NCBI GenBank assembly: GCA_963703215.1
Contig: OY969800.1
Coordinates: 3,225,483 to 3,289,482 of the forward strand
Origin: an uncultured Bacteroidota bacterium
Lineage (GTDB): Bacteria > Bacteroidota > Ignavibacteria > Kryptoniales > JAKASW01
Reading direction: 5' to 3'
Length of the DNA stretch: 64,000 bases
In this document: one piece after another, positions 41,966 through 56,357 of the stretch
How the letters are laid out: every line of letters starts with the position of its first letter
How positions within the stretch are numbered: position 1 is the stretch's first letter
Notes under the pieces: generated by a model
Database searches by the model: none
Seen by the model: the letters and a program-made list of their open reading frames with translations, nothing else
What the model was told of the DNA's origin: nothing
Made by a program: the position numbers and the translations under genes

Positions 41966-42090
41966 TTAATATGGAAAATGACACCATGGAGCAGAAAAGG
42001 ACATGACAATTGCTACGGATGAAAATTTGCTGAAAATGTTTTCTCTCTCAGCTGAATTTAATTCTCTAACGATGTTCTCGGGGAATTCTT

Positions 42091-43901: not shown

Positions 43902-43910
43902 AAAATTGTC

Positions 43911-44807
43911 GTGATGAGGAATCTGAGGATTGAAATGAGAGACAAAAAATCCGAAAGCGACCGGTTCAAACAGGCTCGCCAGATTGAAATGCTGTCGCTC
44001 GTCGAGAAGAATGCAAATTCCTATTCCGTCGCCGATCTATGTGACATCTTCCATGTTGAAGTAGCAACCGTACATCGCGACCTCCGGGATCTTCGCGAAG
44101 CAGGACACGACATCCACAGCGCCAAGAACAAGCTCATCCTACTCAAGAATCTAACCGAGAAAGATTACCGATTTCTCCTCTCCAATTATCTCACGTCGGC
44201 AAGCGGGATAATAAGTTTCCCGAAGAATATTTCTTTGACGGTTAAACAGCTCAAGGGAAAAACTCTCGAGGTATTTACAGGGCTGGTTGGTGCTATAGGA
44301 GCAAGAGAGAAAATCGAAATCGATTACATGAGGCATCAGGATTCTCGGCTGCACAAATATGTCCTGGAACCCTACGACATTATTCCCGGCAACCGTGACT
44401 GGCGACTCATCGCCGTCTCTGATGGAATTTTCAAACAGTTCATCATCGGAGCCGTAAAAGAAATCAAACGGACTGGCACCTCCTTCAAACGTACGACTGA
44501 ATATTCGGCAGACGAATACTACTCGGGAAGCTTCGGTTTCTTCAGCGGGAAGAATGTGTTCGAAGTAGTTCTCGAATTTAAGAAGAATGTAGGCGACGTT
44601 GTTTCCAACAGGACATGGAGCGAAGACCAGGAAGTCACTCGCGACGATGACGGGACAGTCACGTTGAAGATGAAAGTAAATTCGATAGAAGAAGTCGGGA
44701 GCTGGGTGTTATCATGGGGCGGCGAAGTGAGAATAGTTGAACCCGTCCAGCTGAAAGAATACGTGATAGAAAAAGCAAGAGGGATTCTGAAGAGCAACCG
44801 GCGATAA
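43911..44807 (+). CDS. WYL domain-containing transcriptional regulator (HTH-WYL-WCX architecture)
   Basis: 298 aa. N-terminal wHTH (YSVADLCDIFHVEVATVHRDLRDLREAGHDI). Central WYL-type domain (IEIDYMRH...YVLEPYDIIPGNRDWRLIAV...FIIGAVKEIK). C-terminal extension (SWVLSWGGEVRIVEPVQLKEYV). Confidence 0.8.
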   Translation: MMRNLRIEMRDKKSESDRFKQARQIEMLSLVEKNANSYSVADLCDIFHVEVATVHRDLRDLREAGHDIHSAKNKLILLKNLTEKDYRFLLSNYLTSASGIISFPKNISLTVKQLKGKTLEVFTGLVGAIGAREKIEIDYMRHQDSRLHKYVLEPYDIIPGNRDWRLIAVSDGIFKQFIIGAVKEIKRTGTSFKRTTEYSADEYYSGSFGFFSGKNVFEVVLEFKKNVGDVVSNRTWSEDQEVTRDDDGTVTLKMKVNSIEEVGSWVLSWGGEVRIVEPVQLKEYVIEKARGILKSNRR

Positions 44808-44837
44808 AGTGTCCACAAGAAATTGCACGGTGTCAAT

Positions 44838-44907
44838 CCTGCGAAAGCGGGAATTCATAATCTCTCAGAATCCGCCGCACTGGATTCCCGATGCCGCCTT
44901 GCGGCAT
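44838..44907. repeat. GC-rich hairpins (REP-like) downstream of the WYL gene
   Basis: cctgc-gaaa-gcggg (44838-44851) and atgccgc-ctt-gcggcat (44891-44907), each flanked by GGAATTC/GGATTCCCGA-type sequence. Confidence 0.35.
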
Positions 44908-44980
44908 GCCGCATACTTGTATACAAATAATTGAGCGGCGTAGGAACATTCGGGAATAACATTGTTCTCATTTCGCATGG

Positions 44981-44992
44981 CACCAATTGGTG
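44981..44992. promoter_or_regulatory. perfect 12-bp palindrome CACCAATTGGTG (candidate operator)
   Basis: Perfect dyad about 140 nt upstream of the ATG at 45134, in the intergenic region after the WYL regulator. A second 8-bp palindrome, TGTATACA, lies at 44918-44925. Confidence 0.25.
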
Positions 44993-45133
44993 ATCCGGAA
45001 CCTTGGCGTGTCTCCACAGTCTTAAAATTAAGAAGATAACACCTCAGTCAGGGAAAGAAATATTATCACTCAATGATACGATTTCCCCACCTATCATGCC
45101 TTATATATCCTGCGCAAAAAGGAGAACATACAA

Positions 45134-45526
45134 ATGGCAGGATATTACGGAATCATTCAAAGCGTCGTCAAACGAGGGTATGACGCATTCCAGTTAACCT
45201 TCAGAGTAAACCAGGTCCAAGACACACACGAAGTAAATTCCACAGTCCAGGATAAATTCCACGGCGAAACGTATGTTTACCGGGTGGACGTGGCTGTCGA
45301 AAAAGATCGGCTCATCCTTTTCCCCGACCGTGAATTGGCCCAATGCTTGACGCTGTATCGCAATTCATCCGATAGATCGTCGGACACAGACTGGAAGAAG
45401 TGGCACGATGTTGGCCAGGCAGCCGACCGCCTGTGCCGTCATGTGAGCTCCCTCCTGTTCGAAAAGGACAACCATGCCAGCAAAGCTTTCCCGTCTCAAA
45501 TGGATTTTCATTTCAAGATGAATTGA
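45134..45526 (+). CDS. hypothetical small protein (paralog 1 of a tandem pair)
   Basis: 130 aa. GGAG RBS (aaaaggagaacatacaaATG). The N-terminus YYGIIQSVVKRGYDAFQLTFR and later LAQCLTLYRN / DWKKW align with the next ORF. Confidence 0.7.
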   Translation: MAGYYGIIQSVVKRGYDAFQLTFRVNQVQDTHEVNSTVQDKFHGETYVYRVDVAVEKDRLILFPDRELAQCLTLYRNSSDRSSDTDWKKWHDVGQAADRLCRHVSSLLFEKDNHASKAFPSQMDFHFKMN

Positions 45527-45538
45527 AGGAGTAACAAA

Positions 45539-45892
45539 ATGGAAAACTATCAGGGTATCGTTCAGAATATCGTTATGATTGGAGATGGCGAGTACCGCGT
45601 CACATTCCGCGCGTATAATGGACACGATCTCGAAACCCGCTTCTGGGAAAATGAAGATGTGCCATTCACACTTTATTCGATGATCGCCCGACGAGAAGAG
45701 AACGACTACTCTCTAATCGCGGAAGGGACGCTCAGTGATTGCATCAATGTCCTCCGCGAAAACGAATCGGTCGAAACAGTCGGTACGGATGAGATTGACA
45801 AATGGAAGATCGGAGCTTTGGCAACCAATATCGCTTCTTCGCTCGCAGACAGCGGCATGTTCACTCCGTGCGAAGTTGACGAGGAAGCCTGA
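45539..45892 (+). CDS. hypothetical small protein (paralog 2 of a tandem pair)
   Basis: 117 aa. GGAG RBS (gaaggagtaacaaaATG). NYQGIVQNIVMIGDGEYRVTFR, LSDCINVLREN and DKWK align with paralog 1. Confidence 0.7.
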   Translation: MENYQGIVQNIVMIGDGEYRVTFRAYNGHDLETRFWENEDVPFTLYSMIARREENDYSLIAEGTLSDCINVLRENESVETVGTDEIDKWKIGALATNIASSLADSGMFTPCEVDEEA

Positions 45893-45904
45893 TGTTTCGC
45901 TGCG

Positions 45905-45994
45905 GGAATCCACGATTTGAAGCTCCTGGATAAGCACGGCATCGTCCGCTAGATTACTTTCAAGCGTCGGAACGATTTCTTCAAGTGCAGCCAT
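45905..45994 (-). pseudogene. truncated duplicate of the small ORF at 48133-48303
   Basis: MAALEEIVPTLESNLADDAVLIQEL matches (R)EEIVPMLESILADEAVFMSKL of the ORF upstream of the J-like gene. About three quarters of ~64 nt are identical by manual alignment. The rest of track ORF 45713-45994 is antisense to the paralog-2 gene. Confidence 0.5.
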
Positions 45995-46083
45995 GATTTA
46001 TACTTCTCCATGGTTTGTGAATAAACTTGTCACCGCTTGGATGTACCGTCACGAATTACCTCCTGACTGCCAGACTGTTGATC

Positions 46084-46128
46084 GTCGGGAAGGAACTCCC
46101 GACACCCCGCCACCGCTCGGGGTCGGGA
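46084..46128. repeat. REP-like hairpin cluster (GTCGGGA-N6-TCCCGAC, ACCCCG-N8-CGGGGT, then CGGGA)
   Basis: Two adjacent perfect hairpins. The trailing CGGGGTCGGGA can instead pair with TCCCGACACCCCG, so mutually exclusive folds are possible. Confidence 0.45.
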
Positions 46129-46548
46129 CGAAAGTGCCATTTCCAGATACCTAAAATACCAACGGTCGGCACCGAAGATCTTTATGGTAATTATTACTTA
46201 CTGAACTGGGTATTGTTCATCATAAGTTCTTATCCTGAAACGATCTCTGCTGAAAACACTGGAAATTCAAATGAGCCGACTTGGCATACATATTGAGCTT
46301 ATTCGTGAATGTGAAAACAATACCAATTCATTCTCAAGAACCTGAGCTTCCAAAAGCTTGGGCAAATTATTTGTCGAATGATGGGTATACCGTGCTCACC
46401 TCCTCTGATGTGCTAGAGTCAGCTGGGATTCCTCCGACGCAATTAGAGCTGCTTGTAGCCGCGGATTCGTTCGTGAGCCGGGATTACCGATTTCTTTCAG
46501 CAAATTAAAAGGAGTGGTTAACACTCCGCAAACTACGGGAGGCAACAA

Positions 46549-47121
46549 GTGAGGCGTCTATTCTACAAGCTGATGGGATTTTTCGTTATTGTCTTTTTAA
46601 TTGTAGCGGTTTCTGTTGATACGTTAAATGCCCTCGAATCCAGTGTGACTCCGCTTCAAGCGATTTTCATGATCAAGCAGCTCATTCCTCAGGTGCAAAC
46701 GATCGGACTCATGTGGAACCTAAGCTTAGCAAATACAAGCGACCTTTTGCCAAAAATAGAAAGGGCAGCTGTCTCGACCGGTGTGAAAGTGGTGATCGAG
46801 GACGTTGAAGGAATAAGTGACGTCCCGCAGAAATTCAGGGATCTCAAAGATAACCGGCATGTCCAGGTGCTGTGGATCATCGATGAAAGCTCCCCTTTTA
46901 ATGCTCCTGTCGTAAAAGATTATCTGGTAAAGACCGCGATCGTAGACGGGATTGCGCTATTCGCCCCTAATTCCGATTGGGTTTCAGCGGGTGCTTGCAC
47001 TTCGCTGTCTACCGACGGTAATACGTTGAGGCTATGCGTCAATAGAAAAACTATCGCTGCCCTCGGGCTAAATGTACCAGACAAGTATTTGCTGCACACA
47101 GACTTCCTCGCAGCAAAGTGA
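46549..47121 (+). CDS. membrane-anchored periplasmic-binding-protein-like protein (resembles one lobe of ABC_sub_bind/PF04392-type proteins)
   Basis: 190 aa. GTG start with GGAGG RBS. N-terminal TM/signal anchor. IKQLIPQVQTIGLMWN...AVSTGVKVVIEDV...VQVLWIIDES...ALFAPNSDWVSAGA resembles the second repeat of that binding-protein family. Assignment is tentative. Confidence 0.4.
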   Translation: MRRLFYKLMGFFVIVFLIVAVSVDTLNALESSVTPLQAIFMIKQLIPQVQTIGLMWNLSLANTSDLLPKIERAAVSTGVKVVIEDVEGISDVPQKFRDLKDNRHVQVLWIIDESSPFNAPVVKDYLVKTAIVDGIALFAPNSDWVSAGACTSLSTDGNTLRLCVNRKTIAALGLNVPDKYLLHTDFLAAK

Positions 47122-47466
47122 CGGAAAAACTTGAGTCATCGGAACGGGGGCAACGTAGCGTTGCCCCTGCTTTATCATCATTATTTGTTTTCGCTTCGTT
47201 GATGATGATTATACGGTGGAAATGATTTGGCATCACGACAAATTCATCCATTTCGACGTTCGGGTATTTGTTCGGAATCTCATCCAAACATTCTTTGACG
47301 ATCTCCCCGAATTGATTCATCTTCATTTCAGAATCGATAACATCACCGAATTGTAAGGGCGATTCATGAATCGCCTCTAACTGCGCACACACACGGTAAT
47401 AAAACATCCACAAGGACAGGAATAATCATACCCCTTTAACCGAATCGAACGACGGCATGTCCGCCA
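47051..47466 (-). pseudogene. REP-associated tyrosine transposase (RAYT/IS200-like) remnant
   Basis: HUH motif retained (EFVVMPNHFHRIIII). The canonical N-terminus RRSIRLKGYDYSCPCGCFITVCVRS* lies in a different frame (47453 downward) and ends in a stop. The ATG at 47466 is in a third frame. The C-terminal half with the catalytic Tyr is missing, and the remnant abuts or overlaps the 46549-47121 gene. Confidence 0.65.
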
Positions 47467-47542
47467 TGGTTCACCTTTTGACGGATGGCTCTTGTAAGGA
47501 TCGTATATCAATATGGTCTCGGGCAATTAGAAAAACTGATAG

Positions 47543-48136
47543 TCATGTGTCATCGCTCGATTGACGGAACAATGAGATAAAAGCCATTATGGAAAAACCC
47601 GCGAAGGAAAGACCGACGCAGGAGGAAACTGCGACTGCAAACCAAAATCTCCATGGGTCATTCCTCATCGAGACGACTCCCCCGAAACGAGGATGCTTTG
47701 AAATTTCCCACGTCGCTCCCGTTAATAATCCCCTCGCCGCCGCGTACAGCCCCAGGAGACCTAGTGCAAGAAAAAACAGTCCGCTGATTATCGCGATTAT
47801 CTGACCTACTGGGGCAAAGTGTTCAGAGGTGTCAATTCCTTGTTTTGCAGCTTCTTCCCGATCTCTATTTACCTCCTTATGGTATTCGGTCACTTCCTGT
47901 TGATGTTCTGAAGCTTCTTTCCTACTTAGTTCATCATTGAGAAGATTGTCGTAGAGTCCCCGCGATGTCTCATTGCCAAGAATGGAATATGCCTTCTCAA
48001 CCGCGGAAATGCTTTCGCCTGTCATCGAACCGTTTGGCTGCTCAGACTTTAGCCACGCAATTTTATTTTCGTATGCCAGGCGGATTTGTTCGTCCGTCGC
48101 GCCGGGTGAAATTCCAAGTAGTTCGTAATACGTCAT
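47543..48136 (-). CDS. J-domain-like membrane protein lacking the HPD motif
   Basis: 197 aa. TYYELLGISPGATDEQIRLAYENKIAWL...VEKAYSILGNETSRGLYD follows the DnaJ J-domain pattern, but the HPD position reads SEQPNG. Two C-terminal TM helices. Confidence 0.7.
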   Translation of the reverse strand: MTYYELLGISPGATDEQIRLAYENKIAWLKSEQPNGSMTGESISAVEKAYSILGNETSRGLYDNLLNDELSRKEASEHQQEVTEYHKEVNRDREEAAKQGIDTSEHFAPVGQIIAIISGLFFLALGLLGLYAAARGLLTGATWEISKHPRFGGVVSMRNDPWRFWFAVAVSSCVGLSFAGFSIMAFISLFRQSSDDT

Positions 48137-48303
48137 TGGCTCTTTTTACTTAGCTCAGAAGCCTGTCGCGATAACATGGTCTGAAGAGTCGGAATAATCT
48201 CCTTCTCAAGTTCCGTCACCTCGTCGGCGGTCTTGCTGCGCGGTTCGATACCACGAAGCTTCGACATAAACACCGCCTCATCCGCAAGTATGCTTTCGAG
48301 CAT
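48133..48303 (-). CDS. small hypothetical protein translationally coupled to the J-like gene
   Basis: Below the track's length cut-off. Manual translation gives MLESILADEAVFMSKLRGIEPRSKTADEVTELEKEIIPTLQTMLSRQASELSKKSQ* (56 aa). Its TGA overlaps the downstream ATG (ATGA at 48133-48136). An in-frame upstream extension, MEEQ-TAA-SAPIREEIVP, reaches 48348. Confidence 0.5.
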   Translation of the reverse strand: MLESILADEAVFMSKLRGIEPRSKTADEVTELEKEIIPTLQTMLSRQASELSKKSQ

Positions 48304-48388
48304 CGGTACGATTTCTTCGCGTATAGGGGCAGATTATTGCTCTTCCATAACCCCGAGAGTGCAGTGATGGATTCAAGGCATGGTCGTT

Positions 48389-49207
48389 TTAAGTATTCAA
48401 TGTGTCTTGAGAATGTAGAGATCTTTTTTTCTGTCCAAAAGACAGATGAAGACCTATGAAGATGATCAAGGGCATATAATAAAATGCCATTTGTGAAAGA
48501 TCAGGACGCAAAGAATTCAAGAGTTTCTTTTGCCTTGTATTCTGACCCTTATTCTTCAAGTAAGCATTCAATTTGGAATAGTCGATGTAGTACAAAGTTG
48601 AATCGGATAGACTCATTTTTGATAGCTGTATGATTGTCGTGTCAAGGGCCCCCTTTACGTGGTCTTGACGATCACCTTGGTAAACCATGTGAACGTCAAA
48701 AAGGTAGAAACCGGCAAATAGAGTTACCGCAATGAGCAACATGTTTGGTTTGTCTTTGACTCTACCGGGTCGCAGAATAGTCGCAAGCAAGACCGCCATC
48801 ACTCCTACAAATGACAAACGAGCTTGCATTCTTTCACTTTCCCGAGCGCTTTGCCATTGAGCGTGGGTGGATTCATGTTGTAGAATTACCTCCGATAATA
48901 AAGATATTCTTACGCCCCTTTCTGACCGTAGAACAAACTGGGTACTATCGGGGGTCAAAAGCGAAACAATGGGCCATTCATCATTACGTGGCCAAAAGAA
49001 ACCTGCTACGCACTGTCCGATAAGGAACAGCGAGAGGAATGAAAGTATTGCGTCCACCTTATGCTGCTGGACGGTCTTCCAACAGCGGTAATGTTTTCGC
49101 TTGATCACTCGCCAAACTTTCAGTGTGATTCCATCTTTGGTTTTCCCTAATATTGTCAATCCCACATTTTTTTTCAAGAGAAAATCTAACCTGTCTCTAC
49201 CATACAA
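48389..49207 (-). CDS. hypothetical membrane protein (about 4 TM)
   Basis: 272 aa with hydrophobic helices (AILSFLSLFLIGQCVAGFF, LSFVGVMAVLLATIL, MLLIAVTLFAGFYLF, FYYMPLIIFIGLHL). No family recognised. Confidence 0.55.
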   Translation of the reverse strand: MYGRDRLDFLLKKNVGLTILGKTKDGITLKVWRVIKRKHYRCWKTVQQHKVDAILSFLSLFLIGQCVAGFFWPRNDEWPIVSLLTPDSTQFVLRSERGVRISLLSEVILQHESTHAQWQSARESERMQARLSFVGVMAVLLATILRPGRVKDKPNMLLIAVTLFAGFYLFDVHMVYQGDRQDHVKGALDTTIIQLSKMSLSDSTLYYIDYSKLNAYLKNKGQNTRQKKLLNSLRPDLSQMAFYYMPLIIFIGLHLSFGQKKRSLHSQDTLNT

Positions 49208-49277
49208 TCAACCTTTCCGTGCCCACTCAGCCTCCTTTATCGTGAGACTCATAAGACGAGCTAATTGGAAGGCGGCA

Positions 49278-50504
49278 TTAATTAATATCAGTGGGAGCGC
49301 CTAGTTCTTTAAGTGCATTGCGGTAATAAACTCCACCTTCACCACCTGAGTGAATATGGGCCCGGATAAATTGAATGATATTTGTACGAACCTTGTCGGC
49401 TTCGGGAAAGTCCCCATCGGTCCAAAATCGTTTTGACCGGTCGAAGTAGCCCAGGCGCGCAAGGAAATCGGCACCGAAACTTTCGCATGTTTCTCGTGAG
49501 TCATCGCTGTCCTGAAGTTTAAATGACCCGTCCGGCTGCAGTGATTCGCTCAGGCACCAGTGGAGCATCTTCCGAATTTCGACTCGCATGGCTTCCTGTT
49601 CATCCGATGAAGCTTTGCTCCATCCCATACTGAATAACTGAATGACATCCATGTTGTTATGATTCAAGTAGCTGCTTCCTTCAAGCCAGCCGAGAGGATA
49701 CTTTTTGTTTTTAATCGCCAGCGTGGTCGCAATGATCTTCTGCCAATCCGGTACGTTTCCGTGGAGATAACTGACAATGTGAAAGGTGATACTCAGGTCA
49801 CCGGTCTTTTTAATCGTCGTATCGTTTGGGATGCGATACCAGGCGCCCCAGTAACCGGTTTCCGGATTGCGCGCAGTGTTGAGCAGCCAATCCAGCATCG
49901 CTGCTTTCAGTCGCGGATCATAAGCATAACTCTTCGGTTGATTGCCCAGGATCAGCCGCATCAGATCGGAAATTGTCTCGTTCAATTCCCGCCGATGATC
50001 TACGCCCTCAGTCTTCAGGTCTGAGATCAGCAAATGATTGAGATGCCCGGTCAATTTCTCGGGCGAATTGATCCGATCCAGAAAATGCACCGGATATTTT
50101 GGAACCCTGCCTTGACGGGCGAGCTCCGTTACCTGGTCATAAGAAGCATCTAACTTGAAGAACCATTCCGTGTACCACTTTCCCCAGCTGCCGTCGATTT
50201 CGGATTGCTCATCCGCCGCCTGTGCACTGGCGGTATCCTGCATTGCTTCTTCCAAAGCCTTTACGCGTTCTCCCATGCGTTGATAGTCATGGGTCGAACC
50301 ACAAATCCATTCGGTTTCATAAAGGACCTGATGCGCAGGCCGGTAGGCTTTTCCCTGTAGTTCGAGCGCAAAGAGCCGTCTCTTCATCCGGATAAGTCTG
50401 CCTTCATAATAAGCCCATCGGATTGTGTTCCACTTCAGCACAACAAGACCCGCCAAAAGCAGGACAACGATTGCAGCCCCAAACGGTTTCTTATTGATTG
50501 TCAC
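49278..50504 (-). CDS. hypothetical N-terminally membrane-anchored protein
   Basis: 408 aa. One N-terminal TM (FGAAIVVLLLAGLVVL). The large helical soluble domain has motifs reminiscent of alpha/alpha-toroid repeats (NPETGYWGAWY, LQPDGSFK). No confident family. Confidence 0.55.
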   Translation of the reverse strand: MTINKKPFGAAIVVLLLAGLVVLKWNTIRWAYYEGRLIRMKRRLFALELQGKAYRPAHQVLYETEWICGSTHDYQRMGERVKALEEAMQDTASAQAADEQSEIDGSWGKWYTEWFFKLDASYDQVTELARQGRVPKYPVHFLDRINSPEKLTGHLNHLLISDLKTEGVDHRRELNETISDLMRLILGNQPKSYAYDPRLKAAMLDWLLNTARNPETGYWGAWYRIPNDTTIKKTGDLSITFHIVSYLHGNVPDWQKIIATTLAIKNKKYPLGWLEGSSYLNHNNMDVIQLFSMGWSKASSDEQEAMRVEIRKMLHWCLSESLQPDGSFKLQDSDDSRETCESFGADFLARLGYFDRSKRFWTDGDFPEADKVRTNIIQFIRAHIHSGGEGGVYYRNALKELGAPTDIN

Positions 50505-50754
50505 TTTATACTGTTCCCATCGGGATGCCGCCTAACTTTCAATTCGTTTCCGCATGACAACTGCTCTCCAGTATAGTATGACGTCCGCTATGCCATGATC
50601 TTTTCCCGCACCATTCATCTCACCAAAAATCTAATTTGTATCAACCATTTAGTCAAGCTGCGCGTCCCGGCTTTTGACGCCAAGGCCATGGCATAAGTCA
50701 AGAGGTAAAAATAAAAAACCCTTTCCTACTGCCTCTGGAGAGAGAGCAAGTTTG

Positions 50755-51591
50755 TCACTTTGGTAATATCCCAATTCTGACGAGGAAATATGTAATGAGC
50801 GCTCCGACAAAGATTTTGAAAACATCGCCAGTGACATCTCCGGGAATGTCGTAAAACCTCCCTTTGATTTTATCCCACACAGTTTTGTTAAATCCAGAAT
50901 CTCTGTCTATGTCGAATTTATAAACATACTTCAAATTATAGGCAACGCTTCCCTTTTCTTCTTTGTTGCCAATCCATTTGCGAGACAAGACTTCCATCGT
51001 CTCGTTTAGATATTCCTCTCCGAATATCGTTTTAATTTGTTCCTTATGTCCGTCACAAATATATCCGGTCATGATATCGATACGGTCATCCATCTTCCTA
51101 CGGTCGAAATCGCCAAAGCACCCAATTGTCTCTTCATGGGAATTAATTTCGATGGAATCTGCCATTTCATTACCTGGTGTACGAGATGCCGTTTTTGAAG
51201 AATAGATGAGGCAGCAATAAATGCTATGCGCCAGGTACTCAAACAACGAAGGTGGTGAAAAAGCCTTTTCCCAATCGACCGTCGTAATGATGCCTATGTT
51301 TTCTTCTTCACCTTCCATATCAAAAAAGTAACCCTCAGGTAAACTCTGTGTTATAATTCCGATGACTAGATCGGCAACCACCTTCTTGCTTTGCACAAAA
51401 CTCCTTAGCCTTTTGGCGGGACTGCCAGACACAAAAGAGGCACTGCCGTTTTTCAAATCTGGAAAGAAGAACTCATAAGTTTTCTGCGCATTGTTCAACG
51501 ATAGAATGAAATATCTGAATGCATCTTCGCTGAAATTTGGGGTCTGAACAAAAATCAATGCAACCTTAAGACGCGGCATAGAATAACACAT
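50755..51591 (-). CDS. hypothetical protein with C-terminal TM anchor, closely following the patatin-like gene
   Basis: 278 aa. Starts 46 nt after the patatin stop. Alternating beta-strand-like segments (KVALIFV, LVIGIIT, IGIITTV), a Cys/His-rich segment (SHEETIGCFGDFDRRKMDDRIDIMTGYICDGH), and a C-terminal helix FKIFVGALITYFLVRIGIL. Confidence 0.6.
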   Translation of the reverse strand: MCYSMPRLKVALIFVQTPNFSEDAFRYFILSLNNAQKTYEFFFPDLKNGSASFVSGSPAKRLRSFVQSKKVVADLVIGIITQSLPEGYFFDMEGEEENIGIITTVDWEKAFSPPSLFEYLAHSIYCCLIYSSKTASRTPGNEMADSIEINSHEETIGCFGDFDRRKMDDRIDIMTGYICDGHKEQIKTIFGEEYLNETMEVLSRKWIGNKEEKGSVAYNLKYVYKFDIDRDSGFNKTVWDKIKGRFYDIPGDVTGDVFKIFVGALITYFLVRIGILPK

Positions 51592-51637
51592 CCTCCTCTT
51601 GTTTTGTCAATTCACTACCCAATTGTACTTCTCATCG

Positions 51638-52588
51638 TTACCACTTACTATTTATCCAACTCGCCCACTTCTCAATAGTACCATGATCAATATTAGCGGG
51701 AAGAGATAAAAGTTCAGGAATCTTGGAGGCATCGTCCATCCCGATGTTCTCTGTCATCTCCGTTTGCATCCGCTGGTATTTGTCTCCTGTCAGGATATTT
51801 TTGCACTGATAATCCGCTATCCCAACAGGGCCGTCCATGATCATTGAAAGGAGCCTCGTGTTCCAGCCGAGTATTCCCCACCTCACTCTCTTTCTTCTGA
51901 CAAATACCGGATTCTCTCCCGTGCCAATCGATATAAGGCGAACACTTTCGATGTCTCTCTGAGACTTGTTCCTCGGATCGAGGACCTGGGCAAGCGCACA
52001 CATGCTCGGATTGTTAGCGCAGACCCCACCGTCGACAAAGCCTTCGACAGATGGCAGATAGGTCGGCGCCGCACTGGTGTAAAGTCCGACATTGCGAAGC
52101 AGGTCTTTGTCTTGATCGTTCCCCTCAAAGTTATGGAATATCTTCGGTGCCCAGCGGTTTCGCTTGTTCTCTTTTATATCCAGGTCAAACGAAACGACAA
52201 CAACTTTTTTCTTCAACTCATCCAGCCGCGTTTCACCAAACATATTCTCCAGGTGACCCTCAAGTGCAGTATTTCTGTATCCAGCATGTATGAATTTGAA
52301 GACTGAAGAAATATAGTACAGGCTCGATCTGTTAAAGATGCCCGCTCCGAAGTTCTTGTAGAAATCTATTATCTGATCCAGGCTCTTTCCGGACGCCAGC
52401 GAGAGCGCGATCAGTCCGCCTGTGGATGTGCCAGCATAGACATCCGCTTCATGGATCCAGGCTTCGCTACCAAGCTCAGCCGATACTTTCTTCAAGACCC
52501 CGAGGCTGATCAATCCTTTCAGTCCGCCTCCGTCGAATGAGAGGACGCGGTAATGATTCTGGTCGTTCATGAGTTCACTAACCTCCAT
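51638..52588 (-). CDS. patatin-like phospholipase
   Basis: 316 aa. Oxyanion-hole motif FDGGGLKG, nucleophile elbow GTSTG (GxSxG), and catalytic Asp in FVDGGVCANNP (DGG). All canonical patatin motifs are intact. Confidence 0.85.
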   Translation of the reverse strand: MEVSELMNDQNHYRVLSFDGGGLKGLISLGVLKKVSAELGSEAWIHEADVYAGTSTGGLIALSLASGKSLDQIIDFYKNFGAGIFNRSSLYYISSVFKFIHAGYRNTALEGHLENMFGETRLDELKKKVVVVSFDLDIKENKRNRWAPKIFHNFEGNDQDKDLLRNVGLYTSAAPTYLPSVEGFVDGGVCANNPSMCALAQVLDPRNKSQRDIESVRLISIGTGENPVFVRRKRVRWGILGWNTRLLSMIMDGPVGIADYQCKNILTGDKYQRMQTEMTENIGMDDASKIPELLSLPANIDHGTIEKWASWINSKW

Positions 52589-52779
52589 TTAACAATGTAT
52601 AGTGGATTCGTGTTGCAAACGAGACGGCGGCGGTTGGTAACACAGTAAAGAGTGTAGTCAGTCACAAAAATGTACTCCTATTACAGAACGATATGCCTGA
52701 CGTTCTGCATGTTGATACAAAGCCGTTATGATATTACGCGAATGCAATCGGGGGAGAATTCTATTCGCATTCATACGAC

Positions 52780-53832
52780 TTATGGGTTATCCGCCCATGT
52801 ATAATAGATGAACTCACTGTAAGGATCCCCAGCGACTTCCTCAACGATGTTGCGTACTGCCACCGCATCAGTGTTGAGTTGGGATGCCAATAATTTCACA
52901 ATAGCTTCTGCCTTTTCCTTCTCTCCCTCATCTGTTCCCGACAATGAATCCGATAGGTTGATAATCTCGAAGGCGCTACGAAGGCCGACTTTTCGCCATT
53001 TATCCTGATCCCGTTCAGTATAGATCCACAGCAACGCCTGGCTGACACAATCGACTATATAACTATATCCGAGGTTCGTGCGGATGGTAAGTTTTATAGG
53101 GTCGTAATAGGCCAATTGAGAAACAGTTGTAATTCCTTCCTCTCCAAAGCGTTCGGCCTTGCGTGCATCAACGCCGTGCAGGGACTGAAGCTCACTCTCC
53201 ACGTTCTCAGAGCCTTCTCCCAGACCTAACTTTTGTCGTCCCAACTTCCTCATTAGGGAAAAAAGACTGTCAGTCGGAAATGCGCCAAGCAAAAATGCGA
53301 CAGCAGGACCGATATTTTCCGCAGCAAATTGTGATATGGCGTATCCCAATGGAACTGCAACAACAAACCTGAAACATGCCCAGTATAAATCACCCGGCGA
53401 GAGATCAGCATACCACCATCTGGTAATCTGGTCATTTAGGACCCACATGTAAGCTCCAAAAACCGCAAATACTCCCACAATTTTGGATGGCGGATTCAAA
53501 ATTGCGCTGTCATTGGACTGCACCCAGAGGAGACACTGAAACAACAGAAATGCAGCAACTAATAAGAACAGGACAATAGGGAGGATGAAGCGCTTTCTTC
53601 CATATTGGGTATCATAATATTTTTCAAATCGCCGCACCTGATCCTGCTCGTCTCTTTCATATCTCGGATGAAATTGTTTGAAGTATGTCTTGATCGCATT
53701 TTGTTGATCACTGTAAATACCACTTAGAATTTCGAAGCGACGCTCCCTCCAGCCTCCCACAAGAAACGAAAGACTTGGGGCAAGCAAGAGAACTGTCGCA
53801 AGTACTGTTCCTATCAAATATAGATCGTTCAT
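52780..53832 (-). CDS. hypothetical polytopic membrane protein with C-terminal helix-hairpin-helix-like (DUF4332-like) region
   Basis: 350 aa. About 5-6 TM helices in the N-terminal 200 aa. The C-terminal LQSLHGVDARKAERFGEEGITTVSQLAYYDPIKL resembles HhH/DUF4332 motifs. Tentative. Confidence 0.5.
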   Translation of the reverse strand: MNDLYLIGTVLATVLLLAPSLSFLVGGWRERRFEILSGIYSDQQNAIKTYFKQFHPRYERDEQDQVRRFEKYYDTQYGRKRFILPIVLFLLVAAFLLFQCLLWVQSNDSAILNPPSKIVGVFAVFGAYMWVLNDQITRWWYADLSPGDLYWACFRFVVAVPLGYAISQFAAENIGPAVAFLLGAFPTDSLFSLMRKLGRQKLGLGEGSENVESELQSLHGVDARKAERFGEEGITTVSQLAYYDPIKLTIRTNLGYSYIVDCVSQALLWIYTERDQDKWRKVGLRSAFEIINLSDSLSGTDEGEKEKAEAIVKLLASQLNTDAVAVRNIVEEVAGDPYSEFIYYTWADNP

Positions 53833-53991
53833 CTCATGTCTCTTTTCTTTCTAACTTAGGTAACTCTTTTTTTCTAGCATAGCGGCCATCTTCCTCCCAT
53901 CGGATGCGCTTCGTTAATGGTGTGGTAGCGGTTGGTGGCGTAGTATAGAATTTAAAGGGTCAAGAAACGATTCCTCCATAATCAAATGCAG

Positions 53992-54023
53992 GCAGCTGTC
54001 GGGAATTCTGGCCCGACAACTGC
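53992..54023 (-). terminator. strong hairpin after the 54065-54391 ORF (terminator or REP-like element)
   Basis: gcagctgtcggg (53992-54003) pairs with cccgacaactgc (54012-54023): a 12-bp stem with one mismatch and an 8-nt loop. It lies about 40 nt downstream of the stop at 54065 on the minus strand. It shares the GTCGGG..CCCGAC core with the 46084 hairpin. Confidence 0.4.
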
Positions 54024-54064
54024 TAAGCTACATTATCATTACTAATCCAAATGATTGCTCACGT

Positions 54065-54391
54065 TTATAACAAAGCGAACCCAACTTTGCCATTCACTAA
54101 ATTCGCGACCGCGGCAAGAACGGCGTTAACAGCATTCTGGGCCGCCATTAAGGACATGCCTTGGGCAGAAGTTAATACAGCAGTAGCAGCGACTTTTTGT
54201 TGGTTCAACAAAAGGGCGGCTTCGTCTTTACTAATGTCACCACTCGCGACTCCCGACGCAATCATTGCGAGTGTAGACGCTAGCTTTTCACCTTCCGTTT
54301 TTAGATAGTTAACCACAACTTGAGGTTGACCGCTGAGAGCATTTCCTGCAGCGTTCAATATTCCGCTCTTTAAATCATCGATAAATGCCAT
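54065..54391 (-). CDS. small Ala-rich hypothetical protein
   Basis: 108 aa, predicted helical, Ala/Gly/Val-rich (…AATAVLTSAQGMSLMAAQNAVNAVLAAVANLV…). 21-nt gap after the preceding lipoprotein gene. Confidence 0.5.
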   Translation of the reverse strand: MAFIDDLKSGILNAAGNALSGQPQVVVNYLKTEGEKLASTLAMIASGVASGDISKDEAALLLNQQKVAATAVLTSAQGMSLMAAQNAVNAVLAAVANLVNGKVGFALL

Positions 54392-54412
54392 GGTTCACAC
54401 TCCTTTCAAGGA

Positions 54413-54928
54413 TTATTGATTATAAGTTTTTCCAGATTTTTCGTAAAGCTCCAATGCCAAAGCAGCAGAAATGGTTTGGTCTATGTTACTACGGCACACC
54501 TCCAAAGCAAGCTTCGAGGGGCCAAGATTCTTGTTACGGTCATTTAGAGAATGAAGATCCAATAGGCTAGTCTTTGGCTGCGTAGAATCACCGCTACCCA
54601 AGATCGATAGACGGATTTGATGGATAAGCTTCACTATTATTTCATTGTTTGGCATTGCTCCCGCTCGAAACTCCAGCTGACTTATTTCCCGGTTCAATTC
54701 GTTGTATGTCTGTTGGTGTTTTGCAAGCGCAGCGTCAGCGGTCCCTGACGTTTGTAAAAGCGTGTCAATGAAACTTAACGCGTATTGATGAAGCAACGTC
54801 AGGTTTGTGTCTGTGACCTCGTCATATGGCGAAATCCATGTTATGGTGCAACTCTGCAATGAGGCTGCGATGAACATAACAGCAAATCCAACGTACAAAT
54901 AATTGAATCTCAAGTTTTTCACTTTCAT
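54413..54928 (-). CDS. hypothetical lipoprotein
   Basis: 171 aa. Signal peptide plus lipobox (FIAASLQSC). The remainder is helical. No family recognised. Confidence 0.55.
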   Translation of the reverse strand: MKVKNLRFNYLYVGFAVMFIAASLQSCTITWISPYDEVTDTNLTLLHQYALSFIDTLLQTSGTADAALAKHQQTYNELNREISQLEFRAGAMPNNEIIVKLIHQIRLSILGSGDSTQPKTSLLDLHSLNDRNKNLGPSKLALEVCRSNIDQTISAALALELYEKSGKTYNQ

Positions 54929-55002
54929 GGTTTCTCCTTTTCTTTTTGCCTACTCTTTTCTGGATTTTCGGCTTCCTCCGTTCACTTAGAATTACATCCT
55001 CT

Positions 55003-55959
55003 TTATGTTTCCTTGCCAGGCTTCGGTCCAGTCCCTCTCAACTGTACCAGCTTGCTTAGCAGATCAAACCAGAATGGCGCACCCAGAGAGACAGCTAGCG
55101 CCGTGACCAGCCAGCCCAGAACATTCAACGGCCAATGCCTTGAGTCCATGTGATTCGCCGTCGCGCTGGAGCTCCATCCAAGGCCGAGGAGGTGATTCGA
55201 TTGGCTAATGTCGTTCTTGTAAAGATTCGTGGCGTAAACTACAAGAGAATCCTGTGTTGAGGCAGATACGGCCTTTGAAGAATCTGTCTTTACCAATGTC
55301 TGCGGGTGGCTCTGCAAGTAACTAGATGCCATCTGGGCAAGCTCCTGCCTTGCGGCTTTGTCTTGCATAAGATGGCTTGCAATGGAGAAAGTGCTCGCAT
55401 TAAATGCGACAGCGACAGCAGCACCTATGACTAGCGAGATCCACTGAGCCTGCCTCTTGTACCAGCCCGACGCGCGATCCATCATGTCGTTAAACCACTG
55501 CTCGATCAGCGCACGAAACTTCACCACATCGTTGTTCGCCTCCTCGAGGAATGACTGAAGCAAACGAGATGTTTCGCTCTGTGAGTTGGAATCGAGAGCC
55601 TGAATACCGGACAATATCGCCTGCGGAGTAAGCATCCCGGCAGCATTGGCGGCAGTCTTAATGCTTTCGGCGAGAGCCTTGGAAAAATCCTGGGGAGAGA
55701 TGTATGATGGCGTCCTGCTGCCATCCTCGCTCATATACCTGATTATCGGATGCTCAAAGAATGACGCGAACAATTTGTCTGATAACGGCGAGTTCGGATC
55801 ATCATCTGTGAGCATTCGTCTGATCGCCTGCTCCAGCATCTTTCCCCTCAACCCCAGGAACGATGCAATTATTTCATTGACGATCGTTGTGAACAGGCTG
55901 TAAAGACAGTAGACAAACACCAGCCCGATTGCGATATCAAGAATTGTTGAGCCAAACAT
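55003..55959 (-). CDS. hypothetical membrane protein (N-terminal TM, central soluble helical region, C-terminal TM pair)
   Basis: 318 aa. MFGSTILDIAIGLVFVYCLYSLFTTIVNEIIASFLGLRGKML... and the C-terminal LGAPFWFDLLSKLVQLRGTGPKP look like a widespread uncharacterised membrane-protein architecture. No name known to me. Confidence 0.55.
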   Translation of the reverse strand: MFGSTILDIAIGLVFVYCLYSLFTTIVNEIIASFLGLRGKMLEQAIRRMLTDDDPNSPLSDKLFASFFEHPIIRYMSEDGSRTPSYISPQDFSKALAESIKTAANAAGMLTPQAILSGIQALDSNSQSETSRLLQSFLEEANNDVVKFRALIEQWFNDMMDRASGWYKRQAQWISLVIGAAVAVAFNASTFSIASHLMQDKAARQELAQMASSYLQSHPQTLVKTDSSKAVSASTQDSLVVYATNLYKNDISQSNHLLGLGWSSSATANHMDSRHWPLNVLGWLVTALAVSLGAPFWFDLLSKLVQLRGTGPKPGKET

Positions 55960-56357
55960 GATCTCCTCCTCCTATAGATTTGGTTTAAGCTATTTACAAA
56001 ATGACTTCATCTTCGATTACTTACCGTGGTCACAAGTATGCACGGCTCAAAAACCGAGCCTGTCCTTGCCGTCCTTATCTATTTCCATAACAAAGAATGC
56101 CGCACATCAAACACACGCAATGAATACGTAAGCTCTTATCTTAGTCCGCCAAATACAGAGTTTCGATATTATTTAATAGTCTTTTTGTCAATGAATCAGG
56201 AGGAAAAGGTTAAATCCTCCTATTACCCTTCTTTGTTAATCGCTCTCCATCCGTTCCGCAGGAGACCTTATACCCATTTCAGATGGAATGAGAAAAATAT
56301 ACACGGCGCCTTATTTAATGTCAAGAAGATAATGGGAAAAGAGCCGAGTTACTTTAA

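What the first reader, a model, noticed from the sequence alone, without database searches (positions are those of the whole stretch)
44808..56357. An ~11.5-kb island of uncharacterised, membrane-centred genes between a WYL regulator and mazG: candidate undescribed conflict or defence locus
Seen in sequence: housekeeping runs flank this stretch (pseudouridine synthase, NUDIX and WYL on the + strand; mazG, GT9, GWxTD and murA on the - strand). Inside it, I cannot place any of the ~14 ORFs in a known pathway. The contents are: (i) a patatin-like phospholipase with all catalytic motifs intact; (ii) at least eight ORFs with TM helices or lipoprotein signals (55003-55959, 54413-54928, 52780-53832, 50755-51591, 49278-50504, 48389-49207, 47543-48136, 46549-47121); (iii) a J-like domain protein without HPD; (iv) two tandem paralogous small soluble proteins; (v) rearrangement scars, namely a decayed RAYT, a truncated duplicate of a small ORF, and REP-like hairpins. 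Established knowledge: WYL regulators such as BrxR and CapW sit at the edges of anti-phage systems, and patatin-like lipases are membrane-destroying effectors in CBASS and other abortive-infection systems. Inference: this may be a membrane-acting defence or conflict system whose sensor is not one of the known modules, since no cyclase, STAND/AAA ATPase, nuclease, RT or TIR is visible. Alternatively it could be an envelope-remodelling or stress locus.
Basis: partly seen in the sequence, partly recalled or inferred. Interest (0 to 1): 0.8.

Follow-up and report, generated by a model that had tools for sequence, protein, structure and literature searches.

The report
Mosaic accessory island with orphan lipase
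This is a real 12.5-kb insertion found only in this genome, carrying a WYL regulator, a CBASS-like membrane-degrading lipase with no signalling partner and about ten unknown membrane proteins; it looks like a patchwork of independent mobile genes, not one new defence machine.

Summary
The island is real. In all 10 related species-level genomes mazG lies directly next to NUDIX. GC content is flat. There is no integrase, tRNA or flanking repeat, only a frameshifted, truncated RAYT and one REP-like hairpin.

A truncated duplicate ORF was not found.

The patatin's nearest characterised relatives are CBASS CapV lipases. However, no cyclase exists in the island or the 64-kb window. It scores below the NCBIfam CBASS-lipase cut-off, its cGAMP-contact residues are only partly kept, and its clade is found alone.

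Each gene belongs to its own widespread, unannotated family found without the others.

One lead survives. The TM318 family (more than 3,600 members, no Pfam domain, no structural relative) sits beside hydrolases in most of the 11 contexts examined: patatin in 3, peptidoglycan hydrolase in 4, serine protease in 3.

Verdict: a mosaic, defence-island-like accessory region, not a demonstrated single system.

The parts
43902..56357 (.). Full extent of the strain-specific insertion between the NUDIX stop codon and the mazG stop codon
   Evidence: In 10 of 10 related genomes mazG and NUDIX are adjacent and convergent, 20-240 bp apart. Junction alignment.
43911..44807 (+). wHTH-WYL-WCX transcriptional regulator (BrxR/CapW-type architecture); part of the island
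   Evidence: Pfam HTH_11 1e-6, WYL 2.3e-7, WCX 1.4e-15. PADLOC WYL 5.4e-25. Absent from all relatives.
45134..45526 (+). s130, small soluble protein of unknown function; tandem paralogue of s117
   Evidence: No family hit. 23% identical to s117, E about 7e-4.
45539..45892 (+). s117, small soluble protein of unknown function; tandem paralogue of s130
   Evidence: As for s130.
46040..46130 (.). REP-like hairpin element (GTCGGGA-N6-TCCCGAC), single copy in the window
   Evidence: Sequence. Unique in 64 kb. About 75% identical to the sequence directly downstream of the 84%-identical patatin in L056.
46549..47121 (+). SBP190: membrane-anchored half of an ABC substrate-binding fold; either truncated or a single-lobe protein
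   Evidence: Pfam ABC_sub_bind 2.6e-7, matching only profile positions 119-233 of 293. N-terminal TM segment.
47156..47505 (-). RAYT (REP-associated tyrosine transposase) pseudogene: frameshifted and 3'-truncated
   Evidence: tblastn with the intact L056 RAYT finds two frames, 59-70% identical, with the C-terminal ~94 residues absent. NCBIfam REP_Tyr_transpos gives 19 bits, a partial match. The 11-bp-stem hairpin 47145-47169 lies at the truncation point.
47543..48136 (-). J-like domain without HPD, followed by two TM helices (sub-threshold PspC-TM-like)
   Evidence: Pfam DnaJ 3.2e-8; LiaI-LiaF-TM_PspC 23 bits against a cut-off of 27. TM segments at 113-131 and 172-190; 'KSEQPNG' in place of HPD.
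48389..49207 (-). TM272, membrane protein with 3 TM segments, unknown function (start codon uncertain)
   Evidence: Hydropathy. No family hits.
49278..50504 (-). p408, N-terminally anchored protein with a ~380-aa soluble domain of unknown function
   Evidence: One N-terminal TM segment. No Pfam, PADLOC, NCBIfam, PHROGs, PDB or plasmid hits.
50755..51579 (-). f274: member of a conserved unannotated family (alpha/beta domain, putative Zn site H148/C154/C175, C-terminal TM anchor); a solitary gene elsewhere
   Evidence: 159 homologues, no Pfam. Invariant residues in alignment A1. AF2 model pLDDT 81. Weak metzincin-like fold match, TM-score 0.3-0.5. Solitary in 5 of 5 foreign contexts.
51638..52570 (-). 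CapV-like patatin phospholipase (310 aa) with an intact catalytic dyad and no partner cyclase
   Evidence: Pfam Patatin 2.6e-27. PADLOC CBASS effector 1.4e-60. NCBIfam CBASS_lipase 173.5 bits against a cut-off of 200. PDB CapV E 2e-33.
52780..53832 (-). TM350: member of a large unannotated membrane family, with a sub-threshold helix-hairpin-helix hint in the C-terminal part
   Evidence: 1,804 representatives at E<1e-3 and 305 at E<1e-30. HHH_5 E 0.095 and DNA_pol_lambd_f E 0.025 at residues 213-258. Conserved on 103 Ralstonia megaplasmids.
53992..54023 (.). 12-bp-stem hairpin in the 232-bp gap between s108 and TM350; a possible boundary between transcription units
   Evidence: the repeat finder, 92% complementary arms.
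54065..54391 (-). s108, small helical protein of unknown function
   Evidence: No family hits.
54413..54928 (-). lipo171, predicted lipoprotein (signal peptide plus LQSC lipobox), unknown function
   Evidence: Sequence and hydropathy. No family hits.
54947..54981 (-). Rfam DUF805b RNA motif (candidate cis-regulatory element) in the 74-bp gap between TM318 and lipo171
   Evidence: RF02914, 50.5 bits against a gathering score of 35.6, E 4e-12, full length. The only Rfam hit in the window.
55003..55959 (-). TM318: member of a very large unannotated membrane family with 3 TM helices, repeatedly found next to hydrolase genes in other genomes
   Evidence: More than 3,646 homologues, almost all listed without a Pfam domain. 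AF2 model pLDDT 74, no PDB fold match. Gene contexts.

Best explanation
The locus is a genuine genome-specific accessory island of about 12.45 kb, inserted at the convergent NUDIX|mazG intergenic site. It is best read as a mosaic of at least five independently mobile units, not one multi-gene machine. The probable units, judged from gene spacing and from who travels with whom, are: [WYL regulator + s130/s117]; debris [half-SBP, RAYT pseudogene, REP-like hairpin]; [J-like/TM protein]; [p408-TM272]; [patatin-f274]; [TM350]; and [TM318 - DUF805b RNA motif - lipo171 - s108].

The one gene with an inferable biochemistry is the patatin, a Ser-Asp phospholipase A of the CapV type. Inferred: like CapV, it is kept inactive and, when triggered, hydrolyses inner-membrane phospholipids. 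That would make it a self-contained toxic or abortive-infection-type effector. Its trigger is not a neighbouring CD-NTase; it could be a trans-acting or unknown ligand, or membrane perturbation.

The WYL protein most likely represses its own small operon and perhaps other island genes until a DNA-damage or ssDNA signal appears (inferred from CapW and BrxR). The remaining membrane proteins are cargo of unknown function that belong to widespread unannotated families.

Shown: the insertion, the gene content, the intact catalytic motifs, the absence of a cyclase, and the lack of co-conservation. Inferred: a defence or conflict role, and the mode of regulation.
For: Insertion polymorphism: 10 of 10 relatives lack the whole block. 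Decay and mobility marks: a frameshifted, truncated RAYT and a REP-like element shared with L056. Independence of the parts: f274 is solitary in 5 of 5 contexts, often among IS, TA, RM and integrase genes. Patatin homologues at 48-86% identity each have different neighbours. 80 patatin loci hold no other island protein except a TM318-like gene in L056/57. TM350-like genes stand alone in Ralstonia, Burkholderia and Paraburkholderia. lipo171 and s108 do not accompany TM318 homologues. Gene spacing: gaps of 190-250 bp separate the proposed units, against 21-74 bp within them, and a hairpin lies at 53992-54023. Patatin biochemistry: catalytic K18/S49/D180 align with AbCapV R21/S58/D192 (PMC12480259). 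No cyclase: Pfam, PADLOC and NCBIfam on every island ORF and PADLOC on 41 other window ORFs. The WYL protein has the wHTH-WYL-WCX architecture, a family known to co-localise with defence islands (PMC9122601) and to sense ssDNA (PMC11662680).
Against: No experiment supports a defence role. PADLOC calls no complete system. More distant members of the same patatin clade lie beside housekeeping genes (YjeF/Nnr, AFOR, GH113, PNP), and TM350-like genes are conserved on Ralstonia megaplasmids. Both facts fit physiological, non-defence roles. All genes except the RAYT are intact, and ten of them share one strand with short gaps, so co-transcription and functional coupling inside this particular island cannot be excluded. 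TM318-family genes lie near patatins in 3 of 11 contexts, which argues against complete independence of TM318 and the patatin. Context sampling was small, at 5-11 independent loci per family.
Confidence: 0.55

Rival explanations
1. The minus-strand block, roughly TM318 to f274 or to the J-TM protein, would be one integrated, undescribed membrane-acting defence system. Membrane proteins would sense phage-induced envelope or membrane perturbation and release the patatin to destroy the membrane (abortive infection), with the WYL protein as regulator.
For: All genes are intact and co-oriented. The island is accessory. The patatin is CapV-like. A WYL regulator is present. A TM318-like gene lies two genes upstream of the 84%-identical patatin in L056, and another lies 11 bp from a patatin-like gene on Rhizobium plasmid pRspNXC14a.
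Against: No two island genes are co-conserved elsewhere apart from the loose, family-level link between TM318 and patatins. f274, TM350 and the patatin each occur alone in other genomes. Intergenic gaps of 190-250 bp and a hairpin split the block. The WYL gene is on the opposite strand, converging on the block, not leading it.
Confidence: 0.12
2. The TM318 family is the membrane component of a hydrolase-handling module that releases, secretes or activates degradative enzymes at the envelope, loosely like holin/endolysin-type (type 10) secretion. The window would carry one such module, with the patatin as the handled enzyme. On this reading the locus serves envelope remodelling or antagonism, not phage defence.
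For: TM318 homologues are co-oriented with and adjacent to N-acetylmuramoyl-L-alanine amidases (Hymenobacter, Caballeronia, L056), a cell-wall hydrolase (R. phaseoli), S8 or trypsin-like proteases (L142, Hymenobacter, L056), patatin-like lipases (NXC14, L056), a metallophosphoesterase and haloperoxidases. The TM318-like + amidase pair has amidases 60% identical across two phyla, so it moves as a unit. The L142 643-aa and L056 844-aa partners have signal peptides.
Against: In the window TM318 is followed by a lipoprotein and a small helical protein, not a hydrolase. The patatin is four genes away, has no signal peptide, and belongs to a different patatin subfamily from the NXC14 enzyme. TM318 is far larger than a holin. 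It has no fold relative and is almost absent from phage genomes, with 2 hits in 2.9 million viral contigs. The association is based on only 11 contexts.
Confidence: 0.15
3. The patatin is still a nucleotide-signal-activated CBASS-type effector, but its signal generator is encoded elsewhere in the genome or is one of the unannotated island proteins acting as a non-canonical synthase. The diadenylate cyclase of CBASS-DAC would be the precedent.
For: The nearest characterised relatives are cGAMP- and cUMP-AMP-activated lipases. AbCapV K149 is matched by the clade-invariant K143. Non-canonical cyclases can drive patatin effectors (PMC13069673). Only 64 kb of a 3.6-Mb contig was inspected.
Against: The NCBIfam CBASS-lipase score is below its cut-off. 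AbCapV F147 and E207 are replaced by R137 and Q195, the R279 region cannot be aligned, and a clade-specific W-A-P-K insertion sits in the binding loop. In 86 loci of relatives no cyclase cluster emerged among the recurring neighbours. No island protein matches any PADLOC or Pfam cyclase.
Confidence: 0.1

Closest known systems
Type I CBASS (CD-NTase + CapV patatin phospholipase effector)
   Same: The patatin is a single-domain lipase of about 310 aa. Its best matches among solved structures and defence models are CapV-type effectors, and it has the same oxyanion loop and Ser-Asp dyad.
   Different: There is no CD-NTase or any other cyclase in the island or the window. The score is below the NCBIfam equivalog cut-off. 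Only 1 of the 4 alignable essential cGAMP contacts of AbCapV is clearly retained. The clade is usually stand-alone and is often found beside housekeeping genes.
wHTH-WYL-WCX regulators of defence islands (BrxR, CapW)
   Same: Identical three-domain architecture, located inside a variable island (PMC9122601, PMC11662680).
   Different: It is not next to any recognised defence system. It is followed by two unknown small paralogues and converges on the rest of the island instead of leading it. Ligand and regulon are untested.
Defence islands and flexible-genome hotspots between conserved core genes
   Same: Presence/absence polymorphism at a fixed site between conserved convergent genes, with transposase debris. 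Homologues of the cargo genes occur among TA, RM, IS and MGE genes elsewhere.
   Different: No complete known defence system is present. There is no compositional deviation, integrase or att-like repeat.
REP/RAYT elements
   Same: The RAYT fragment keeps the HUH motif (HFH) and is 59-70% identical to an intact RAYT in L056. A REP-like hairpin lies nearby.
   Different: The RAYT is frameshifted and lacks its C-terminal third. The hairpin element is single-copy in 64 kb.
Holin/endolysin-type (type 10) secretion modules
   Same: In other genomes TM318 homologues are paired with peptidoglycan amidases and large secreted hydrolases.
   Different: TM318 is a 318-aa protein with 3 TM helices and large soluble loops, unlike a holin. 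It is virtually absent from phages. The window copy has no adjacent peptidoglycan hydrolase.

Membership tests
CBASS (type I) | A CD-NTase (cGAS/DncV-like) cyclase encoded next to the effector | tested here: not met
   No cyclase hit in Pfam, PADLOC or NCBIfam for any island ORF, nor in 41 other window ORFs. None beside close or distant homologues.
CBASS (type I) | Patatin effector with the catalytic Ser-Asp dyad and oxyanion loop | tested here: met
   GGGLKG, GTSTG (S49) and DGG (D180) align with AbCapV R21, S58 and D192 (PMC12480259).
CBASS (type I) | Score at or above the NCBIfam CBASS_lipase equivalog cut-off | tested here: not met
   173.5 bits against a cut-off of 200.
CBASS (type I) | Conservation of the cyclic-dinucleotide contact residues (AbCapV F147, K149, D159, E207, R279) | tested here: inconclusive
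   K149 matches the invariant K143. F147 aligns to R137 and E207 to Q195. D159 falls in an ambiguous Q/D loop. R279 lies beyond the alignable region. A clade-specific W-A-P-K insertion is present.
wHTH-WYL-WCX regulators (BrxR/CapW type) | N-terminal wHTH, central WYL and C-terminal WCX domains | tested here: met
   Pfam HTH_11, WYL and WCX all score above their cut-offs.
wHTH-WYL-WCX regulators (BrxR/CapW type) | Encoded next to, and regulating, a recognised defence system | tested here: not met
   The only PADLOC hits in the island are the WYL protein itself and the orphan patatin. No complete system is present. Regulation itself cannot be tested here.
J-domain co-chaperones (DnaJ/Hsp40) | HPD tripeptide needed to stimulate the Hsp70 ATPase | tested here: not met
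   The J-domain is recognised (34 bits), but the sequence reads KSEQPNG at that position.
RAYT (REP-associated tyrosine transposase) | An intact ORF with the HUH motif and the C-terminal catalytic Tyr region | tested here: not met
   HUH (HFH) is present, but the gene is frameshifted and lacks the last ~94 residues compared with the L056 RAYT.
Genomic island | Presence/absence polymorphism at a conserved site in related genomes | tested here: met
   Absent from 10 of 10 relatives with conserved flanks.
Genomic island | Atypical composition, or an integrase, tRNA or direct repeats at the borders | tested here: not met
   GC is flat. No tRNA. No flanking repeats. No integrase among the ORFs.
Metzincin metalloproteases (considered for f274) | HExxHxxGxxH zinc-binding motif in the active-site helix | tested here: not met
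   The helix reads F-E114-Y-L-x-(H), and the His is not conserved. The fold match is weak: TM-score 0.3-0.5, E about 1e-3.
Holin/endolysin-type secretion (considered for TM318) | A small holin-like membrane protein next to a peptidoglycan hydrolase, typically of phage origin | tested here: not met
   A peptidoglycan hydrolase is adjacent in 4 of 11 homologue contexts but not in the window. TM318 is 318 aa with 3 TM helices. Only 2 hits in 2.9 million viral contigs.
Rfam DUF805b RNA (RF02914) | Score above the gathering threshold | tested here: met
   50.5 bits against 35.6, full length.
Rfam DUF805b RNA (RF02914) | Located upstream of a DUF805-family gene, as the family name implies | tested here: not met
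   The downstream genes lipo171 and s108 have no Pfam DUF805 match, even at E<=1.

The most novel reading that the evidence does not exclude
The TM318 family (more than 3,600 members, no Pfam domain, no structural relative) would be the conserved membrane component of an undescribed, horizontally mobile class of two- to four-gene modules. Their variable partner is a degradative enzyme: a patatin lipase, a peptidoglycan amidase, or an S8 or trypsin-like protease. The window's TM318-to-patatin stretch would be one instance, namely a cyclase-independent, membrane-triggered phospholipase system for phage defence or antagonism, with a DUF805b RNA element as internal regulator.
Probability: 0.18. 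Interest if true: 0.75.

Novelty: new variant of a known kind. Interest (0 to 1): 0.5.

Why it matters
If the patatin is a functional stand-alone effector, it would show how the most common CBASS effector fold can work without a cyclase, through another ligand or through membrane stress. That question is open for the thousands of orphan CapV-like lipases. The analysis also brings out three large protein families that have no annotation (TM318, TM350, f274). TM318 is the most useful of them: its repeated placement next to lipases, peptidoglycan amidases and proteases, and its movement between phyla together with an amidase, give a concrete hypothesis that can be tested. As a whole, though, the island is an ordinary product of flexible-genome turnover, not a demonstrated new system.

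Tried and rejected
(1) A compositional island was rejected because GC is flat.

(2) Integration at a tRNA, or att-like repeats: none found.

(3) Canonical CBASS was rejected because no cyclase is present anywhere in the window.

(4) Patatin + f274 as a conserved pair was rejected: 5 of 5 foreign f274 contexts lack a patatin, and none of the 86 patatin loci has f274.

(5) Patatin + TM350 as a pair found no support. A metagenome scan with TM350 found nothing, no TM350 lies beside any patatin relative, and TM350-like genes are solitary in Burkholderiaceae. The DUF6765 neighbour seen in Ralstonia does not recur.

(6) TM318 + lipo171 + s108 as a conserved trio was rejected: close TM318 homologues have other partners.

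(7) A phage origin for the cargo was rejected: no PHROGs hits, f274 is absent from viral contigs, and TM318 is almost absent.

(8) f274 as a metalloprotease is not supported: there is no HExxH, the fold match is weak, and neither the PDB sequence search nor BFVD gives a hit.

(9) A fold assignment for TM318 failed: there is no PDB match.

(10) p408 remains unplaced. Pfam, PADLOC, NCBIfam, PHROGs, PDB and plasmid searches all came back empty.

(11) A truncated duplicate of a small ORF was not found.

(12) The sigma-70 promoter and terminator scan was uninformative, with counts at or below the shuffle expectation, and the consensus may not suit this lineage.

(13) The 'trypsin-like' reading of the C-terminal half of the L056 687-aa protein rests only on GDSGS and CFHVL motifs. 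Pfam did not recognise it.

(14) The DUF805b motif was not found in 15 related loci, and no published text describing it was available.

Full report
1. WHAT IS IN THE SEQUENCE

ORF listing and family scans confirm the flanks. VTT (42091-42702), a pseudouridine synthase (42706-43419) and NUDIX (43419-43901) lie on the + strand. MazG (56358-57170), GT9, GWxTD and murA lie on the - strand.

Between them lie 13 intact ORFs and one pseudogene. Only four have recognisable domains:
- a wHTH-WYL-WCX regulator (43911-44807);
- a half ABC substrate-binding fold (46549-47121);
- a J-domain/TM protein (47543-48136);
- a patatin (51638-52570).

Nothing else matches Pfam, NCBIfam, PADLOC or PHROGs, even at relaxed thresholds. 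The J-domain lacks HPD. The two small + strand proteins are weak paralogues. GC content is flat. There is no tRNA and no flanking repeat.

2. IS IT AN ISLAND?

Yes, and this result is decisive. A genome-collection scan with MazG returned 10 related species-level genomes, all uncultured Bacteroidota-type MAGs with MazG 77-84% identical. I ran tblastn with 26 window proteins against these loci. In all ten the order is o277-o292-murA-GWxTD-GT9-MazG, followed directly (20-240 bp, convergent) by NUDIX-PsiU-VTT. Not one of the 14 island proteins is present, and that includes WYL.

The insertion therefore spans 43,902-56,357, about 12.45 kb. WYL belongs to it: the gene starts 9 bp after the NUDIX stop. 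Independent assemblies reproduce parts of the arrangement. A 3.4-kb Logan contig carries TM350-patatin-f274 at 100% identity. A patatin fragment and a TM318 fragment are each listed on a 14,051-bp ENA contig, probably the same one.

Scars are present. The RAYT gene is a pseudogene, split over two frames (47505-47386 and 47404-47156) and lacking its last ~94 residues. An 11-bp-stem hairpin sits at the truncation point. A REP-like hairpin element lies at about 46040-46130. It occurs once in the window but is about 75% identical to the sequence directly downstream of the 84%-identical patatin in locus L056, which also carries the intact RAYT. A truncated duplicate of a small ORF could not be found.

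3. THE PATATIN

It scores 203 bits on a PADLOC CBASS phospholipase-effector model and 173.5 bits on NCBIfam CBASS_lipase, below the 200-bit cut-off. Its best matches among solved structures are CapV lipases (E 2e-33 to 2e-29), ahead of plant patatin at 3e-22, but only residues 2-235 align.

I used the published AbCapV residues (PMC12480259) and the alignment.
- Catalytic K18, S49 and D180 correspond to AbCapV R21, S58 and D192.
- Of the essential cGAMP contacts, K149 is matched by the invariant K143.
- F147 aligns to R137 and E207 to Q195.
- D159 falls in an ambiguous loop, and R279 lies outside the alignable region.
- The clade has its own invariant W-A-P-K insertion in that loop.

So catalysis is intact, and the ligand site is not clearly that of CapV.

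No cyclase exists in the island or among 41 other ORFs of the window. Close homologues (86-58% identical) lie in three quite different neighbourhoods with no cyclase. Among 80 metagenomic loci of relatives, the recurring neighbours are housekeeping genes: YjeF/Nnr, aldehyde:ferredoxin oxidoreductase, GH113, PNP and YtxH. This is a largely stand-alone, CapV-like clade.

4. DO THE ISLAND GENES BELONG TOGETHER?

f274 (50755-51579) belongs to a well-conserved family of about 159 members with no Pfam domain. Its invariant residues are W103, PP109-110, E114, H148, C154, D157, C175, R200 and W202, and it has a C-terminal TM anchor. In five foreign contexts it stands alone, without a patatin. Several of those contexts contain transposases, TA genes, AAA_15/21, MmeI, SocA_Panacea or an integrase. 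Its AF2 model (pLDDT 81) resembles metzincin folds only weakly (TM-score 0.3-0.5), and it lacks HExxH.

TM350 (52780-53832) is a large family, with 1,804 representatives at E<1e-3. It is never found beside patatin relatives. It is conserved on 103 Ralstonia megaplasmids and is solitary in Burkholderia and Paraburkholderia.

lipo171, s108, p408, TM272 and the J-TM protein do not recur in any fetched locus.

Gene spacing agrees with this. Gaps are 21-74 bp within the groups TM318-lipo171-s108, patatin-f274 and p408-TM272, but 190-250 bp between the groups. A 12-bp hairpin lies in the gap between s108 and TM350.

The island is therefore best described as a mosaic of separate units.

5. THE EXCEPTION: TM318

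This 3-TM protein belongs to a very large family: more than 3,646 hits, with no Pfam domain recorded for nearly all of those listed. Its model is all-helical (pLDDT 74) and has no PDB fold relative (best E 0.3).

Its neighbours vary but are strikingly often degradative enzymes:

| Context | Neighbours of the TM318-like gene |
|---|---|
| L142 (67% identical) | followed by an S8 peptidase and a 643-aa protein |
| L056 | preceded by an Amidase_2; fused to a domain with GDSGS/CFHVL motifs (not recognised by Pfam); followed by an 844-aa homologue of the 643-aa protein, then the 84%-identical patatin |
| Rhizobium pRspNXC14a | a 701-aa patatin-like protein lies 11 bp upstream |
| Hymenobacter plasmid | followed by an amidase, an S8 peptidase and a 565-aa protein |
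| Caballeronia plasmid | followed by an amidase and a peptidoglycan-binding protein |
| R. phaseoli plasmid | between a cell-wall hydrolase and a metallophosphoesterase |
| Three alphaproteobacterial plasmids | preceded by a vanadium haloperoxidase |
| L144, Vitreoscilla, Nostoc | no recognisable hydrolase beside it |

The Hymenobacter and Caballeronia amidases are 60% identical, so the pair has crossed phyla as a unit. On two MGE-type viral contigs the gene lies among ParB-methylases or next to a VapE-type primase.

Across 11 independent contexts, patatin appears in 3, a peptidoglycan hydrolase in 4 and a serine protease in 3. This is a lead, not a statistic. In the window itself the immediate partners are a lipoprotein and a small helical protein, and the patatin is four genes away.

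6. HOW IT MOST LIKELY WORKS

Best reading (0.55): this is an accessory mosaic at a recombination-prone convergent site.

The patatin is a self-contained Ser-Asp phospholipase. By analogy with CapV it would be held inactive and become membrane-destructive once triggered. The trigger is unknown, and it is not a neighbouring cyclase.

WYL is a wHTH-WYL-WCX repressor. Members of this family co-localise with defence islands (PMC9122601) and sense ssDNA (PMC11662680). It probably controls its own small operon.

A defence or conflict role for at least one unit is plausible. The supporting points are the island's variability, the WYL regulator, the CapV-like fold, and the MGE/TA/RM company that homologues keep. 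None of this is proof. The housekeeping contexts of distant patatins and the conservation of TM350 in Ralstonia argue for caution.

Rival readings: one integrated membrane-sensing system (0.12), a TM318-centred hydrolase-handling or secretion module (0.15), and a trans-signalled CBASS-type effector (0.10).

7. COMPARISON AND NOVELTY

The locus is not a CBASS system, because the cyclase feature was tested and not met. It is not a functional RAYT element, and its J-domain protein is not a canonical co-chaperone. It is a new variant of a known kind: a defence-island-like accessory region with an orphan CapV-like lipase. It also brings three large unannotated families into view.

The most novel reading still open is that TM318 plus a variable hydrolase forms an undescribed mobile system (probability about 0.18).

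8. NOTICED IN PASSING

A near-consensus Rfam DUF805b RNA motif (50.5 bits, E 4e-12) lies in the 74-bp gap between TM318 and lipo171. It is the only Rfam hit in the window. It is absent from 15 related loci, and the gene downstream of it is not a DUF805 gene.

Noticed in passing
window 54947-54981 (- strand): A near-consensus, full-length match to the Rfam DUF805b RNA motif (RF02914; 50.5 bits against a gathering score of 35.6; E 4e-12). It lies in the 74-bp gap between TM318 and the lipoprotein gene and is the only Rfam hit in the 64-kb window. The downstream genes are not Pfam DUF805 proteins, and the motif is absent from 15 related loci.
   Followed up: partly
L016, L020, L021, L034 (between the VTT and o193 homologues); corresponds to window about 41965-42091: A second variable spot. 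In four of the ten relatives, 4-8 kb of extra DNA separates VTT from the o193 homologue. These genes are adjacent in the window and in the other relatives where both lie within the fetched locus.
   Followed up: no
L160 6001-8005 (Hymenobacter plasmid) and L165 5001-7101 (Caballeronia plasmid): A TM318-like gene followed by an N-acetylmuramoyl-L-alanine amidase occurs in a Bacteroidota plasmid and a Betaproteobacteria plasmid. The amidases are 60% identical, so the two-gene unit has been transferred between phyla.
   Followed up: partly
L142 10080-12011 and L056 7446-9980: An unannotated partner family of 643 and 844 aa, with a signal peptide and a conserved C-terminal ~200 aa (52% identical). 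In two loci it follows a TM318-like gene plus a serine-protease gene or domain.
   Followed up: partly
window 50755-51579; alignment A1: The f274 family is a conserved solitary gene with no Pfam domain. It has invariant H148, C154, D157 and C175 (a possible Zn site), an invariant E114 and a C-terminal TM anchor. It often lies among IS, TA, RM and integrase genes, and may be a single-gene conflict factor in its own right.
   Followed up: partly
window 46040-46130 and L056 10944-11030: A REP-like hairpin element is shared (about 75% identity) between the window and the sequence immediately downstream of the 84%-identical patatin in L056. L056 also encodes the intact RAYT related to the window's pseudogene.
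   Followed up: partly
L162 5896-7176 (Ralstonia solanacearum megaplasmid) and 102 further Ralstonia records: A TM350-like gene is conserved across Ralstonia megaplasmids, where a DUF6765 gene follows it. That neighbour does not recur in Burkholderia or Paraburkholderia.
   Followed up: partly
window, one of the 41 ORFs outside the island listed (exact ORF not identified): One ORF matches the PADLOC RtcR/PspF-type CARF-AAA-HTH models strongly (2.8e-89). It is probably a generic sigma-54 enhancer-binding protein, not a defence gene.
   Followed up: no
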